From the NCBI RefSeq assembly GCF_009914755.1, contig NC_060929.1: a DNA stretch of 64,000 nt, one strand, 5' to 3'. The DNA is from the human T2T-CHM13v2.0 reference genome, Homo sapiens. How positions within the stretch are numbered: position 1 is the stretch's first letter; every line of letters starts with the position of its first letter. Under the pieces are notes generated by a model. The model was not told where the DNA came from and did not search any database. It saw only the letters and a program-made list of their open reading frames with translations. The position numbers and the translations under genes are program-made. This document shows, piece by piece, positions 1 to 63,307 of the stretch.

Positions 1-2568
1 ACATCTAAGAAGCTCAATGAACTTCAGGGCGGATAAATTGAAAGGGATCGACACCAAGACAAATTGTGATTAAATTGTTAAAAGACAAAAACAGAGAATT
101 TTGACAACAGCAAGAGAGAAATGACTGGTCATGTATAAGGAATCTTCATTAAGATTAACAGTAGGCTTATCATCAGAAACCATGGAGCTCAGAAAGCAGT
201 GGAATGACGTAAGTGCTGCGAATAAAAGCCAAAAAAGAATCCTGAATCTGGCAAAAGTATCCTTAAAAAATGAAGGAGAAATAAATATGTTCCTAGAACA
301 ACAAAACGGAAGGAGTTCATAACTACAAGGAATACTAAAGGAAGTCCTTCAGCCTGAAAAGAGGCTAGGAGAGAGTAGCTCAAAGCCATATGAAGAACTA
401 AAGAATATCAGTAAAGGTAACTACATAGGTGAAATTAAAAGTAAGTAGTTTTCTATTTTTGGATTTGTAACTCCTCTTTTTTAAGGAAAAAGGATTTAAA
501 AAATAAATGCATAAAAGAATAATTATAAATCTATGTTAATGAGCACATAATATGTAAAGATGTAATTTTAGACAGTGCTACCCTAATAGTTGGAGAATTC
601 AACACCTTGCATTCCATAAAGGCCCAGATAGAAGATCAACAAAAAAGTTGAAGACTTGAACAACACATAAACCAACTAGATCTAACAGACATTTATAGGA
701 CATCACTCCCTCCCAAGAACAGCAAAGTGTATGATATGGTTTGGCTGTGTGTCCCCACCCATACCTCATCTTGAATTGTACTTCTTATAGTTCCCACATG
801 TTTTGGGAGGGACCTGGTGGGAGATAACTGAATCATGGGGGCAGTTTTCCCCATACTGTTCTTGTGGTAGTAAGTCTCATGAGATCTGATGGTTTTATAA
901 GGGGTTTCTGCTTTCGCTTCTCTCTCGTTATCTCTTTGCCTGCCACCATCCATGTGAGATGAGACTTGCTCCTCCTTGCCTTCTGCCATGATTATGAGGC
1001 CTCCCCAGCCATGTGGAACTGTAAGTCCAATTAAACCTCTTTCTTTTGTAAATTCCCCAGTCACAGATATGTCTTTATCAGCAGCGGGAAAATGGACTAA
1101 TACAGTAAATTGGCACCAGTACAGTGGGATGCTGCTGAAAAGATACCTGAAAATGTGGAAGTGACTTTGGAACTGGGTAACAGGCAGAGGTTGGAATAGT
1201 TTGGAGGGCTCAGAAGAAGACATGAAAATGTGGGAAAGTTTGGAACTTCCTAGAGACTTGTTGAATGGCTTTGACCAAACGCCTGATAGTGATGTGGACA
1301 TAAGGTCCAGGCTGAGGTGGTCTCAGATGGAGATGAGGAACTTGTTGGGAACTGGAGTAAAGGTGACTTTTGTTATGTTTTAACAAAGAGACTGGTGGCA
1401 TTTTGACCCTGCCCTAGAGATTTGTGGAACTTTGAACTTGAGAGAGATGATTTAGGGTATCTGGCAGGAGAAATTTCTAAGCAGCAAAGCATTCAAGAGG
1501 TGACTTGGGTGCTGTTAAAAGCATTCAGTTTTATAAGGGAAGCAGAGCATAAAAGTTTGGAAAATTTGTAGCCTGACAATGCAATGGAAAATAAAATCCC
1601 GTTTTCTGAGGAGAAATTCAAACCGGCTGCAGAAATTTGCATAAGTAACAAGGAGCAGAATGTTAATCCCCAAGACAATGGGGAAAATGTATCCAGGGCA
1701 TGTCAGAGGCCTTCATGGCAGCCCTTCCCATCACAGGCCCAAGGCCTTGGAGAAAATGGTTTTATGGGCTGGGCCCAGGGTCCCCGTGCTGTGTGCAGTA
1801 TAGGGACTTGGTGCCCTGCATCCCAGCCACTCCTTCCAGAGCCATGGCTAAAAGGGGTCAAGGTACAGCTCAGGCTGTGGCTTCAGAGGGTGGAAGCCCC
1901 AAGCCTTGGCAGCTTCCACATGGTATTGAGCCTGCGGGTACACAGATGTCAAGCATTGAGGTTTGGGAACCTCTGCCTAGATTTCAGAGGATGTATGGAA
2001 ACGCTTGGATGCCCAGGCAAAAGTTTTCTGCAGGGGTGGGGGTGCTCATGGAGAACCTCTGCCAAGGCAGTGTGGAAGGGAAATGTAGGGTGGGAGCCCC
2101 CACAGACACTCCCTACTGGGGCACTGCCTAGTGGAGCTGTGAGAAGAGAGCTACCGTCTTCCAGACCCCAGAATAGTAGATCCACTGACAGCTTGCACCA
2201 TGTGCCTGAAAAAGCCACAGACACTCAATGCCAGCCCATGAAAGCAGCCAGGAGGAAGGCTGTACCCTGAAAAGCCACAGGGGTGGAGCTGCCCAAGACT
2301 ATGGGAACCTACCTCTTGCATCAGCGTGACCTAGACGTGAGACATGGAGTCAAAGGAGATAATTTTGGACCTTTAAAATTTGACTTCCCCACTGGATTTT
2401 GGACTTGCATGGGGCCTGCAGCCCCTTAGTTTTGGCCAATTTCTTCCATTTGGAACGGCTGTATTTACCCAATGCTTGTACTCCCATTGTATGTAGGAAG
2501 TAACTAACTTGCTTTTGATTTTACAGGCTCATAGGTGGAAGGGACTTGCTTGTCGCAGATGAGACTTT

Positions 2569-2863
2569 TATTTTTTTTAAGACAGTGTCTCACTCTGTCA
2601 CCCAGGCTGGAGTGCAGTGGCATGATCTCAGCTCACTGCTGCAACCGCCACCTCCTGGTCTCAAGTGATTCTCCTGCCTCAGCTTCCTGAGTAGCTAGGA
2701 ATATAGGCACCCACCACCACACCTGGCTAATTTGTGTATTTTTAGTAGAGATGGGGTTTCACCATGTTGTTCAGGCTGGTCTTGAATTCCGGACCTCAGG
2801 TGATGCCCCCACCTTGGCCTTCCAAAGTTCTGGGATTACAGGTGTGAGCCACTGCACCCAGCC
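2569..2863 (-). mobile_element. AluS in THE1 internal region
   Basis: Alu consensus; TSD CAGATGAGACTTT. Confidence 0.9.
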
Positions 2864-3160
2864 TCAGATGAGACTTTGGACTATGGACTTTTGAGTTAAT
2901 GCTAAAGTGAGTTAAGACTTTGGGAGACTGTTGGGAAGGCATTACTGGTTTTGAAATATGAGGACATGAGATTTGGCAGGGGCCAGGGACATAATGATAT
3001 GGTTTGGCTATGTCCCTACCTAAATCTCATCTTGAGTTGTACTCCCATAATTCTCACACGTTGTGGGAGGGACGTGGTGTGAGATAATTGAATCATGGGG
3101 GTGGTCTTCCCCATACTGTTCTTGTGGCAGTGAGTAAGTCTCATGAGATCTGATGGTTTT

Positions 3161-3464
<304 letters not shown>

Positions 3465-52166: not shown

Positions 52167-52226
52167 AGTCTAGTAATGACTGCGAAGATAATCCAACACG
52201 GAACAGAGGGTTTTCCAAGAGAGGCG
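52167..52226 (+). CDS. DDX4: DDX4 exon 7: (E)SSNDCEDNPTRNRGFSKRG(G)
   Basis: TTGAAG acceptor, GCG|GTAAGG donor, 60 nt, phase 1-1. The next exon was not found in the window. Confidence 0.95.
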
Positions 52227-60443: not shown

Positions 60444-61754
60444 TTAGAAACTTACAGAAAAGAACAGAGTGATTAAAGGTAAAGATTAAACACAGATGAA
60501 GAGAATGAATTAATTCAAAGATAAATCTGTGGAAATTCTCTAAACTTGGAAATGGAAAACACGAGAGTGGTTAATAAATAAGGTATGGAAGATAGACTAA
60601 GACCTGTGGTTCAACATATGACTGTCTCCTGAGGAGTGGCCAGAAAATGGGAGGAGGACAGGAAAGAAGAATATTCAAAGAGAATAGATGAGACTTTTCC
60701 AGAGTTAGAGAGGCACAAGAGTCCTCAGCAAATAAAATTAAAAAATTCATACCCTTATGCATGTATTGAAATTATAGTATTACAAAGATTTTTTAAAACC
60801 TATAAAACTACTAGAGAAAAAAGGTAGATTCACCTTTAGAAGAACATTATATTCACAACAGAATTTTCTTCAGTAAAGGTAGATTTCAGAATGTAATAGC
60901 ATAGTATATTCAGAATGCTGAAGGAGAATAGCTCTGAATCCAAATAACTATATTCAGATAATTAGGTGCCAGGGAGAAATAATGCCATTCAGATAAAAAT
61001 GGTGTTTAATACTCTCATATTGTTGAGTAAGAACTACTAAATTGTATACAGTAGTAAGACAACTGATTGCAGGAAGAAAGGCATAGGAAACAAGAAGCAA
61101 TGAGGAGCGAAAAAAAAGATATGTAAAACAGGTAAACATATTGGTAAACTTAAATAAGTATTGACTATATAAACTAGCAATAATGACTATTAATTTAGGG
61201 GTTCCAGAAACAAAAGTGAATTAAAATACTAGCAAATGAAAAGACTGAAATTCTTGCCAGCTCAGTTGAAAGGAAAAATATTTCTTAATAAGTAAAATGA
61301 AGGGTAATCAGAGAAGGGATAAGATAAAATGTGTAACTTGCTGATGGAGGAAATCCAATAGAAGGACAGAGCTTTGTAGGAAGGAAGGTAGATTGAAAAT
61401 AGTTTATTTCCTAAATATTCGTGGTGAAAATTGGTAAAAATAAAATACATAGCTTTACCATTTGGGGAAAACAGGACAGAAAGGAGAACAAAAAGCATCG
61501 AAAAAACTCTGTAAAGAGAAAACACAAAGATTGTAGAAATAAAAGACCTATGTATCAGTAATCATAATATAGGTAAGCATATTTCAATATGGAGTTGAAA
61601 GTAAAGAGGTCAGGCATGGTGGCTCATGCTTGTAATCCTAGCATTTTGGCAGGCCAACATGGGAGGGATCTCTTGAGGCCAGGAATTCAAGGCCAGCCTG
61701 AGCAACTAAATCTTGTCTCTACAAAAAAAAATTTTTTTTTTAAATTAGAAAATA

Positions 61755-61871
61755 GGCTATGGCCATACCACCCTGAACGTGTCCGATCTCGTCTGATCTT
61801 GGAAGCTAAGCAGGGTTGGACCTGGTTAGTACTTGGATGGGAGACTGCCTAGGAATACTAGGTGCTGTAGG
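61755..61871 (+). pseudogene. 5S rRNA pseudogene (nearly full length, lacks the terminal CTTT)
   Basis: GGCCATACCACCCTGAACG...GATCTCGTCTGATC..GGAAGCTAAGCAGGG...TGGTTAGTACTTGGATGGGAGAC..GGTGCTGTAGG matches vertebrate 5S rRNA. Most differences are CpG transitions. Confidence 0.95.
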
Positions 61872-62036
61872 TGTCGGGGGAGGGCAGGTGGGGGAAGAGA
61901 GCATTAGGGAAAAGAGCTAACGCATGCTGGGCTTAATACCTAGGTGATGGGTTGACAGGTGCAGCAAACTACCATAGCACACGTTTACCTATGTAACAAA
62001 CCTGCACATCCTGCACACGTACCCTGAAACTTAAAA
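61872..62036 (+). mobile_element. L1PA (older primate subfamily) extreme 3' UTR fused to the 5S copy
   Basis: G-rich stretch, then CTTAATACCTAGGTGATGGGTTG..GGTGCAGCAAAC..ACCTATGTAACAAACCTGCACATCCTGCAC..GAAACTTAAAA, the L1PA 3' terminus. Confidence 0.88.
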
Positions 62037-62860
62037 GTAAAGAGAAAAAAGTGTTCAGTAACTCAAAGCTGAATAGAAATAGAGACAAAGTATACTGTAA
62101 GGTAGAATTATTAAGGATAAATTCATCAGGAAGACATTATAGTTCTGAACATGGTTCTAATCTAACAATATACTAAGATGCACAAAGGAAAATAGACATA
62201 AGGAAAAATTCGCAAATCCTAGTAAGTTGAGACAGCAGAACAGAGATTAATAAGAATATAGAAGATCTGAATGCCACTTACTCAGCTTGATTTAATATTT
62301 GTTTGGAATCATATACTCTAAAATTATAAATCATATATTTTTCCAGCATGTATGGAAAATATGTACAATTTGATCATCTTTTAAGGATGACCTATGATAA
62401 ATATATCATAGGTCATGTTCTCTTATTAAAATAAAAGAAATCAATAAGTCTAACCTTCATGATTTAGAAACTGAATTTCTCAGTTTATGAATAACAGTTC
62501 ATATGGAAATCCTGAAATATTTAGAATTTAATAACAGTAAGAACAGAGCACATGAAAACTTTGAGGATATAGTTAAAGCAGCTGCCTCTTAGAGGAAATT
62601 TTATAGCCTTAAATGCATCAGAGAAAGGATAAAATGTAAAACTTGCTAATAGAGGAAATCTAGTAGGACAGAACTTTGTAGGAAGAAGACTAGATTAAAA
62701 ATAGTTTAAATATTTCTTTTCTCAGAAAAAATAATGAGTTAAGTGTTCAAGCCAAGTAGTTAGAAGGGAGAAAACTCAAATAAAAAAGGTAGTAGACATA
62801 AATGAAATAGAAACAGATACAATAGAGTGTTCAGCAGTAAAAGAAAATGAGGTAGTTTCA

Positions 62861-63307
<447 letters not shown>

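What the first reader, a model, noticed from the sequence alone, without database searches (positions are those of the whole stretch)
61598..62044. Tripartite Alu-left-arm / 5S rRNA / L1 3'-end retro-chimera under one apparent TSD (SINE3-like architecture)
Seen: an Alu left monomer (61608-~61747), a near-complete 5S rRNA copy (61755-61871) and ~165 nt of L1PA 3' terminus (61872-62036) are joined head-to-tail on the same strand. AAAGTAAAGAG occurs at the Alu 5' edge (61598-61608) and again directly after the L1 end (62034-62044), and I see no separate TSD around the 5S-L1 part. The 5S internal control region (box A AGCTAAGCAGGG, box C TGGATGGGAG) is intact but its oligo-T terminator is gone; the first run of four or more T is at 62338. 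Known: L1 ORF2p forms bipartite small-RNA/L1 chimeras (U6-L1, rarer 5S-L1), and SINE3 elements are 5S heads with LINE tails. Inference: this is either a rare double template-switch insertion or a 5S-L1 chimera that landed in a FLAM/Alu tail. It could in principle give a Pol III 5S-L1 read-through RNA inside a germline-expressed intron.
Basis: partly seen in the sequence, partly recalled or inferred. Interest (0 to 1): 0.8.

Follow-up and report, generated by a model that had tools for sequence, protein, structure and literature searches.

The report
Alu–5S–L1 composite retro-pseudogene in DDX4 intron
An old Alu half, a full copy of 5S ribosomal RNA and the tail end of an L1 element sit head-to-tail between one real 11-base target duplication in a DDX4 intron: a rare but known kind of retrotransposition accident, single-copy and most likely inert.

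Summary
Rfam finds a full-length 5S copy at 61755-61873 (87.7 bits). An Alu left arm plus A/T-rich linker lies at 61608-61754. The last 165 nt of a primate L1 lie at 61872-62036.

AAAGTAAAGAG is exact at 61598-61608 and 62034-62044. It is not chance: an anchored match of 11 or more arose in 11 of 200,000 simulated L1 tails, and 29 real sibling tails reached at most 7.

Three things are new.
- The L1 has no poly(A). It stops at CTTAAAA, and three of those A are shared with the duplication.
- The Alu arm is an old type and about 2.5 times more diverged than the 5S and L1 parts (13.4% against 5.9% and 4.4% at non-CpG sites).
- No sibling copy of either junction, and no source copy of the Alu arm, exists in this genome.

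I favour one insertion with two template switches (about 0.5) over a 5S-L1 chimera landing at an older monomer's tail (about 0.37). Only orthologous loci can decide. It is not a SINE3-like family, and Pol III read-through is unlikely.

The parts
61598..61608 (+). 5' copy of the target-site duplication AAAGTAAAGAG. Its last G may also be Alu nt 1.
   Evidence: Exact 11-mer repeat. Tested against chance.
61608..61722 (+). Alu left monomer body, from nt 1 to ...GTCTCTAC. It is an old type with all inferred CpGs decayed, a 5-nt deletion and an internal T4 at 61644-61647.
61723..61754 (+). A/T-rich Alu mid-linker or tail: A9 (61723-61731), T10 (61732-61741), AAATTAG (61742-61748) and AAAATA (61749-61754). 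AAATTAG matches the end of the linker in dimeric Alus.
   Evidence: Dimeric Alus L056, L048 and L042 show the same A(n)T(n)...TTAG linker form.
61755..61871 (+). 5S rRNA copy (RNA5SP183), nt 1-117 of 121, with 10 mismatches to the array gene and no indel. It lacks the terminal (C)UUU.
61872..62036 (+). The last 165 nt of a primate L1 3' UTR, ending ...CCCTGAAACTTAAAA. It has none of the A/T-rich terminal stretch or poly(A) seen in all 29 siblings.
62034..62044 (+). 3' copy of the target-site duplication AAAGTAAAGAG. Bases 62034-62036 are shared with the L1 end.
62045..62610 (+). Right flank: a very old LINE-1-like sequence in the ORF2 endonuclease region, on the same strand. Together with 60690-61597 on the left it forms the host sequence.
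   Evidence: Collinear but weak tblastn hits to two full-length L1 loci (E 0.003-0.04). Only self hits at DNA level. Pfam found no L1-related family: 5 of 6 pieces had no match and one had a weak unrelated match.

Best explanation
This is a dead, single-copy composite retro-pseudogene that L1 made in one target-primed reverse transcription event.

Inferred mechanism, step by step:
1. L1 endonuclease nicked the bottom strand of an ancient LINE-like sequence in a DDX4 intron at 5'-CTTT/CAAC-3'.
2. The freed ...TACTTT-3' end paired with the A-rich stretch at the very end of an L1 3' UTR (CUUAAAA...) rather than with the poly(A). The copy therefore has no tail.
3. After 165 nt of L1, the reverse transcriptase switched to the 3' end of a 5S rRNA and copied it to nt 1.
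4. It then switched a second time, onto an Alu left-monomer RNA transcribed from an already old Alu or free-monomer copy, and copied that to its nt 1.
5. Second-strand repair produced the 11-bp duplication that encloses all three parts.

Shown: the three parts, their exact junctions, the duplication and its statistical weight, the missing poly(A), and the lack of sibling copies. Inferred: the single event, the order of the switches, the microhomology priming, and the old RNA source for the Alu arm. Today the unit most likely does nothing.
For: - The 11-bp repeat abuts Alu nt 1 on one side and the last L1-specific base on the other. Chance is about 5e-5.
- No separate duplication and no poly(A) bound the 5S-L1 part. 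The best alternative is 8 of 9, and 4 of 29 unrelated tails match as well.
- Both internal junctions are at RNA ends, as template jumping predicts. The L1 joins 5S at nt 117/118 of 121, and 5S runs to its nt 1.
- Both repeat copies are identical at 11 of 11. By my calculation from the rates, that has about 32% probability at the 5S/L1 divergence and about 4% at the Alu-arm divergence.
- There is a precedent in two mouse B2 SINE-U6-L1 elements flanked by perfect 15- and 16-bp repeats (PMC2104539, section 8 read).
- Priming without a tail by microhomology has parallels in this genome. Four 5S pseudogenes (L016, L018, L019, L023) stop at ...GGATGGGA and run straight into a duplication that starts GAAA.
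Against: - The Alu arm looks much older than the other two parts. Non-CpG differences are 13/97 (13.4%), against 6/102 for 5S and 6/136 for L1 (Fisher p = 0.012). Counting all substitutions gives 20/104 against 18/248 (p = 0.002). Against 5S alone the difference is only p = 0.08-0.09.
- Its inferred CpGs are decayed at 7 of 7, against 5 of 8 in 5S.
- Each part matches the typical divergence of its own family. Alu siblings have a median of 10.8% and L1 siblings 4.4%. That is what two insertions at different times would give.
- A single event therefore needs an RNA from an already old copy, yet no such source is present. The best genomic match to the Alu arm is 87-88% over at most 79 nt, and 80-83% over the full length.
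- The Alu part carries a T10 run and 13 more bases before the 5S. A Pol III transcript would not read through T10, so the run must have expanded after insertion.
- The nick site CTTT/CA is not the canonical TTTT/AA (consensus recalled).
Confidence: 0.5

Rival explanations
1. Two events. An old free left Alu monomer inserted first and created the AAAGTAAAGAG duplication. Tens of millions of years later a bipartite 5S-L1 chimera inserted exactly between the monomer's A-rich tail and its 3' duplication copy. That second insertion had no poly(A) and no duplication of its own. It was either an endonuclease-dependent event with blunt or deleting second-strand cleavage, or an endonuclease-independent insertion at a break.
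For: - The Alu arm is about 2.5 times more diverged than 5S and L1 and has lost 7 of 7 inferred CpGs.
- It is closest to old-type Alu left arms, whose median non-CpG divergence of 10.8% it shares.
- No source copy exists that could have supplied an already old RNA.
- The stretch AAATTAG-AAAATA before the 5S reads like a decayed genomic tail.
- Free monomers with an A9T10 tail and their own duplication do exist, for example L045.
- Doucet et al. 2015 name this rival explicitly for tripartite elements (PMC4476161, passage read).
- A missing poly(A), 3' truncation and a missing duplication together are the recalled hallmarks of endonuclease-independent L1 insertion.
Against: - The second insertion has to hit one exact phosphodiester bond at the tail/duplication boundary.
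- It must leave no duplication: no third copy of AAAGTAAAGAG lies before the 5S.
- It must leave no poly(A).
- The old monomer's 22 duplicated bases must all have escaped change. I calculate about 4% for that at the Alu arm's non-CpG rate.
Confidence: 0.37
2. The 11-mer repeat is a coincidence. A 5S-L1 chimera with a short degenerate A-rich tail (AAAAGTAAAG) inserted into the tail of an older monomer at a TTCT/AA site. Its real duplication is AGAAAATAG / AGAAAAAAG.
For: The 8 of 9 repeat lies at 61747-61755 and 62043-62051. That nick site would be closer to the recalled endonuclease consensus. The flank is A/G-rich and contains another exact 12-mer repeat, GTAAAGAGAAAA at 61511-61522.
Against: An anchored exact match of 11 or more arose in only 11 of 200,000 simulated tails, and real sibling tails gave at most 7 in 29. 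G is rare at the relevant tail positions in siblings, at 0-3 of 29 per column. The 8 of 9 match is reached by 4 of 29 unrelated tails.
Confidence: 0.03
3. The unit is a member or a retro-copy of a composite mobile family, a SINE3-like 5S-head/LINE-tail SINE, or is a working Pol III gene that gives a 5S-L1 RNA.
For: The 5S scores well above Rfam's threshold.
Against: - None of the 39 non-self scored hits crosses the 5S/L1 junction (219 candidates).
- No Alu-5S junction copy exists (273 candidates, 40 scored; three hits that reached upstream of the 5S were inspected and have unique flanks).
- The 5S is not at the 5' end of the unit.
- Nt 63, 66, 92 and 97 are changed, and there is no T4 run until 62338.
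- The upstream element that human 5S genes need (recalled) cannot be present in a retro-copy.
Confidence: 0.03

Closest known systems
Mouse B2 SINE-U6 snRNA-L1 tripartite chimeric retrogenes (Gogvadze et al. 2007, PMC2104539)
   Same: The order from 5' to 3' is SINE, then a small Pol III RNA, then a 5'-truncated L1 3' end, all in sense and enclosed by one pair of perfect direct repeats (15 and 16 bp there, 11 bp here). The same two explanations are on offer: a double template switch, or a second insertion in the 3' end of the first.
   Different: Here the parts are an Alu left monomer and 5S rRNA instead of B2 and U6. There is no poly(A) after the L1. The SINE part is clearly older in sequence than the other two. 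I could not see their figure 4 or additional file 2, so I do not know whether the mouse SINE parts show the same age gap.
Bipartite 5S rRNA-L1 chimeras (Buzdin et al. 2003, recalled and not held; bioRxiv 10.1101/2025.02.02.635956, passages read)
   Same: A 5S copy is fused directly to the 3' part of an L1 and inserted by L1 machinery with a target duplication.
   Different: The preprint says 5S segments in such chimeras are frequently antisense and truncated at positions 46 or 90. This one is sense and essentially full length (nt 1-117). It also has a third part upstream inside the duplication and lacks a poly(A).
The two human 'tripartite chimera-like' elements of Gogvadze et al. 2005 (cited in PMC2104539)
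   Same: Human loci with three fused retro-copies.
   Different: They are described as lacking identifiable direct repeats, being in a microsatellite or in AT-rich flanks. This locus has an exact 11-bp repeat. I could not see what they are made of or where they lie, so identity with one of them is unlikely but not excluded.
SINE3 and other 5S-derived SINEs (Kapitonov and Jurka 2003, recalled; listed in the preprint's references)
   Same: A 5S-derived segment is followed by a LINE-derived 3' tail.
   Different: Those are multi-copy families that a 5S promoter at the 5' end drives. This is a single copy with an Alu arm in front and no sign of amplification.
Endonuclease-independent (non-classical) L1 insertions (Morrish 2002 and Sen 2007, recalled)
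   Same: A 3'-truncated L1 without poly(A), with a junction at a short microhomology.
   Different: Those lack target duplications. Here a significant 11-bp duplication flanks the whole composite. The likeness matters only for the two-event rival.

Membership tests
L1-mediated small-RNA/L1 chimeric retro-pseudogene | A full-length small RNA copy in sense, fused directly to a 5'-truncated L1 3' part | tested here: met
   5S nt 1-117 is joined at 61871/61872 to L1 sequence that aligns with 29 sibling L1 3' ends.
L1-mediated small-RNA/L1 chimeric retro-pseudogene | Poly(A) or an A-rich tail at the 3' end | tested here: not met
   The L1 ends at CTTAAAA and runs straight into GTAAAGAG. All 29 siblings carry an A/T-rich tail there.
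L1-mediated small-RNA/L1 chimeric retro-pseudogene | A target-site duplication of about 7-20 bp flanking the insertion | tested here: met
   An exact 11-bp repeat with a chance probability of about 5e-5. It encloses the Alu arm as well.
L1-mediated small-RNA/L1 chimeric retro-pseudogene | An L1 endonuclease-type nick site (TTTT/AA, recalled) | tested here: inconclusive
   The inferred site is 5'-CTTT/CAAC-3' on the bottom strand: T-rich before the nick, but C after it.
Tripartite chimeric retroelement (double template switch) | Copies of three different transcripts fused head-to-tail in one orientation | tested here: met
Tripartite chimeric retroelement (double template switch) | One pair of direct repeats around all three parts and none around a subset | tested here: met
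   The only internal candidate is 8 of 9, matched equally by 4 of 29 unrelated tails.
Tripartite chimeric retroelement (double template switch) | All three parts arrived at the same time | tested here: inconclusive
   Orthologous loci are not available here. The sequence-age proxy points the other way, with the Alu arm at 13.4% non-CpG divergence against 5.9% and 4.4% (p = 0.012). An RNA from an old copy could also explain that.
SINE3-like 5S-derived SINE family | A multi-copy family sharing the same 5S/LINE junction | tested here: not met
   No other copy of either junction exists in this genome.
SINE3-like 5S-derived SINE family | A 5S-derived Pol III promoter at the 5' end of the unit, and a terminator | tested here: not met
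   The 5S is internal, behind an Alu arm and a T10 run. The first T4 or longer after it is at 62338.
Free left Alu monomer | Left-arm homology only, followed by an A-rich tail, with no right arm | tested here: met
   Homology ends at the linker ...AAATTAG. Where dimeric siblings continue with the right arm, the 5S follows instead.
Free left Alu monomer | A target duplication of its own directly after its tail | tested here: inconclusive
   The matching repeat copy lies after the 5S-L1, not after the tail. Whether it once followed the tail is the open question.

The most novel reading that the evidence does not exclude
This is a true product of two successive template jumps in a single L1 insertion. 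It would be the first human SINE-small RNA-L1 tripartite retro-copy with an unambiguous target duplication. Two unusual features would come with it: the third template was a transcript of an already decayed Alu monomer rather than an active SINE, and reverse transcription was primed without any poly(A), by a few bases of microhomology to the end of the L1 3' UTR.
Probability: 0.5. Interest if true: 0.45.

Novelty: new member of a known kind. Interest (0 to 1): 0.3.

Why it matters
Tripartite L1 chimeras are the main natural evidence that the L1 reverse transcriptase can jump templates more than once in a single insertion. According to Gogvadze et al. 2007 (PMC2104539), the two human examples known then had no recognisable target duplication, and only mouse and fungal cases did.

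A human case with a clean 11-bp duplication would be a useful addition. Existing primate alignments could date it exactly. The age gap between the Alu arm and the other two parts also shows that a single flanking duplication does not by itself prove a single event. That caution applies to published tripartite cases as well.

There is no sign that the locus matters for DDX4 or produces a functional RNA.

Tried and rejected
- Empty-site proxy from other copies of the ancient host repeat. DNA searches with each flank found only the window itself. A 40-aa translation found only itself and one weak hit at E 0.9. blastn of the flanks against the window gave only a 100-nt internal repeat and a 30-nt palindrome.
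- Identity of the host repeat. tblastn of flank translations, with stops as X, against two near-full-length L1 loci gave only weak collinear hits. Pfam found no L1-related family in six open pieces: five had no match and one had a weak unrelated match, YozE_SAM_like at E 0.013, below its cut-off. So 'ancient LINE-1-like' is only weakly supported, and I could not confirm the pre-insertion sequence independently.
- Sibling or source copies. Searches with both junctions and with the Alu arm, twice, found none. Only the 40 best of 219-3274 candidates are scored per search, so a distant relative could be missed. A copy 90% identical should not be.
- A third, decayed copy of the duplication before the 5S (AAATTAGAAAATAG). 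I rejected this because AAATTAG matches the Alu linker end seen in many dimeric siblings, and the rest is no better than chance.
- Twin priming or an inverted tail as the origin of A9T10. I rejected this because the same A(n)T(n)...TTAG linker form occurs inside intact dimeric Alus (L056, L048, L042).
- BC200 origin of the monomer. I considered this from recalled sequence features only and did not pursue it.
- Literature. Buzdin et al. 2003 is not held. A search for RNA5SP183 found one paper, which only lists the name. Searches for tripartite or triple chimeras found no description of an Alu-5S-L1 element.
Full report
**What is there**

The window is chr5 of T2T-CHM13, and the finding lies in a DDX4 intron, downstream of the exon at 52167-52226 and on the sense strand (hub annotation).

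Rfam 5S_rRNA matches 61755-61873 on the + strand at 87.7 bits (gathering score 38) over the whole model. A weak Metazoa_SRP match, the signature of an Alu arm, lies at 61609-61741 at 22.1 bits. The two arms of the ordinary Alu at 62899-63181 score 59 and 56.7 bits.

A search of the window's own genome with 61598-62044 returned the locus itself and 39 L1 3' ends, 87-94% identical. They cover window 61872 to 62036-62044 (40 scored of 8157 candidates).

**Junctions**

The 5S array on contig C1 gives the canonical gene: 5 of the 6 gene copies found in six fetched array loci are identical. Against it, the 5S copy aligns from nt 1 (61755) to nt 117 (61871) without gaps. It has 10 mismatches, at nt 2, 6, 26, 28, 46, 63, 66, 92, 97 and 106. 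Nt 118 is ambiguous with the first L1 base, and the terminal UUU is missing.

L1 siblings read ...CCTGTCGGGGGAGGG... at the point where this copy reads ...GTAGG|TGTCGGGGGAGGG. So the L1 begins at 61872, directly at the 3' end of the 5S RNA.

Upstream, the Alu arm starts at its nt 1 (61608/61609) and runs to ...GTCTCTAC at 61722. Then come A9, T10, AAATTAG and AAAATA, and the 5S follows at once. AAATTAG is the end of the mid-linker that in dimeric Alus precedes the right arm. Several dimeric siblings have the same A(n)T(n)...TTAG form (L056, L048, L042). The Alu part is therefore a left arm plus a complete linker.

**The duplication**

AAAGTAAAGAG is exact at 61598-61608 and 62034-62044. Two things could weaken it, and I tested both.

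First, the flank is A/G-rich, and another exact 12-mer, GTAAAGAGAAAA, occurs at 61511-61522.

Second, the 3' copy sits where an L1 tail would be. Aligning 29 sibling L1 ends shows that the family ends ...GGAACTTAAAA, followed by an A/T-rich tail in every sibling. This copy has G, T, G and G at positions where siblings show G in 3, 0, 1 and 1 of 29.

I simulated tails with sibling composition. An anchored exact match of 11 or more to the bases just before the Alu start arose in 11 of 200,000. The 29 real sibling tails gave at most 7.

The duplication is therefore real. It begins inside the L1's own terminal AAAA, and the L1 has no poly(A) at all.

The best candidate for a separate duplication around 5S-L1 alone is AGAAAATAG (61747-61755) against AGAAAAAAG (62043-62051). 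That is 8 of 9, and 4 of 29 unrelated tails match the pre-5S sequence equally well.

**No family**

Searches with the Alu/5S junction (273 candidates, 40 scored) and the 5S/L1 junction (219 candidates, 40 scored) found only other 5S genes and pseudogenes. All 39 non-self hits stop at the 5S end. I inspected three hits that reach upstream of the 5S (L016, L019, L023), and they have unrelated flanks. The unit is a single copy and not a SINE-like family.

**Ages of the parts**

I compared each part with the majority state of its closest genomic relatives, or with the array gene in the case of 5S.

| Part | Non-CpG differences | Inferred CpGs decayed | Sibling median (non-CpG) |
|---|---|---|---|
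| Alu arm | 13/97 (13.4%) | 7 of 7 | 10.8% (range 6.9-15.8%) |
| 5S | 6/102 (5.9%) | 5 of 8 | not applicable |
| L1, 61897-62036 | 6/136 (4.4%) | 1 of 2 | 4.4% (range 0.7-6.6%) |

The Alu arm also carries a 5-nt deletion and a 1-nt insertion.

The Alu arm against 5S plus L1 gives Fisher p = 0.012 at non-CpG sites and p = 0.002 for all substitutions, 20/104 against 18/248. Against 5S alone the difference is only p = 0.08-0.09. Both sibling sets were picked for similarity to the query, so all values are underestimates. The bias should be at least as strong for the far larger Alu family.

By recalled diagnostic positions the arm is of the old AluJ or free-left-monomer type. No copy in the genome is close enough to be its source: the best match is 87-88% over at most 79 nt, and 80-83% over the full length.

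**Explanation**

The duplication encloses all three parts. Both internal junctions lie at RNA ends. There is no second duplication and no internal poly(A).

This is what one target-primed reverse transcription with two template jumps predicts: L1, then the 3' end of 5S, then an Alu-monomer RNA. It matches the mouse B2-U6-L1 elements with perfect 15- and 16-bp repeats (PMC2104539, section 8).

The missing tail fits priming by the nicked end ...TACTTT-3' on the CUUAAAA at the end of the L1 3' UTR. This step is inferred. As a parallel in this genome, four 5S pseudogenes stop at ...GGATGGGA and run directly into a duplication that starts GAAA.

The perfect 11 of 11 repeat also fits the younger age better. 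I calculate about 32% probability of no change at 5% divergence, against about 4% at 13.4%.

The evidence against is the age gap. A single event needs the third template to be a transcript of an already decayed monomer that has left no source copy. The T10 run must also have expanded after insertion.

The rival, which Doucet et al. 2015 name explicitly (PMC4476161), is an old monomer with this duplication into which a 5S-L1 chimera later inserted. That explains the ages naturally. It needs the second insertion to hit the exact tail/duplication boundary, to leave neither a duplication nor a poly(A), and the old duplication to stay perfect.

Weighing these, I put one event at about 0.5, two events at about 0.37, a chance repeat at about 0.03, and a family or functional reading at about 0.03. 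The rest is unassigned.

**Function**

Nothing points to activity.
- Positions 63, 66, 92 and 97 lie in or next to the recalled box A, intermediate element and box C, and they differ from the gene.
- A retro-copy cannot carry the upstream element of human 5S genes (recalled).
- The first T run after the 5S is at 62338-62342.
- A T4 at 61644-61647 and the T10 at 61732-61741 would stop any Alu-driven Pol III transcript before the 5S.
- I could not examine expression data.

**Literature**

PMC2104539 (abstract, passages and section 8 read) reports two human tripartite-like elements without recognisable repeats, and two mouse cases and one fungal case with repeats.

The 2025 preprint 10.1101/2025.02.02.635956 (passages read) catalogues 253 small-RNA/L1 chimeras, of which 10.5% involve 5S, mostly antisense and truncated. 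It also lists 113 Alu/L1 chimeras. It does not use the word tripartite.

My searches found no description of it.

**Verdict**

It is a new example of a known, rare kind of L1 by-product. Whether it arose in one step or two is undecided and could be settled easily with primate alignments. Interest is modest.

Noticed in passing
L016 (G000:C8:93292608-93292684), L018 (C10:107856996-107857047), L019 (C8:56122478-56122547), L023 (C10:275280-275349): Four 5S pseudogenes are all cut at about nt 88-90 (...GGATGGGA). Each is followed at once, without poly(A), by a 13-17 bp target duplication that starts GAAA and repeats the bases just before 5S nt 1. This looks like tail-less priming by microhomology on the GAGA of 5S. 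The 2025 preprint notes frequent truncation near position 90.
   Followed up: partly
L017 (G000:C3, around 184627504-184627554, minus strand): A full-length 5S copy (to ...GCTGTAGGGTT) is fused directly to nt 1 of a full-length, young-looking dimeric Alu with a poly(A). AGAAAA-type repeats lie on both sides. It is a candidate bipartite 5S-Alu chimera.
   Followed up: partly
window 61307-61406 and 62617-62708: A 100-nt direct repeat at 80% identity (E 4.5e-20) straddles the composite within the old host sequence. I have no explanation. It may be an old internal duplication of the host repeat.
   Followed up: no
window 62387-62416: A 30-nt near-perfect palindrome (28 of 30) in the right flank.
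   Followed up: no
window 61511-61522 and 62037-62048: The exact 12-mer GTAAAGAGAAAA occurs 87 nt upstream of the Alu start and again overlapping the 3' duplication copy. It shows that the A/G-rich host sequence produces chance repeats of this size.
   Followed up: yes
L045 (G000:C13:48776162-48776293): A free Alu left monomer has the same A9T10 run directly after ...CTCTAC and then its own duplication of about 16 bp (AAAAAATGAACTCTA / AAAAGAATGAATTCTA). An A-run followed by a T-run recurs at this point in several old Alus (L042, L043, L048, L056).
   Followed up: partly
window 62899-63181: An ordinary dimeric Alu on the + strand. Each arm scores 57-59 bits on the SRP model, far better than the 22 bits of the monomer in the composite.
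   Followed up: no
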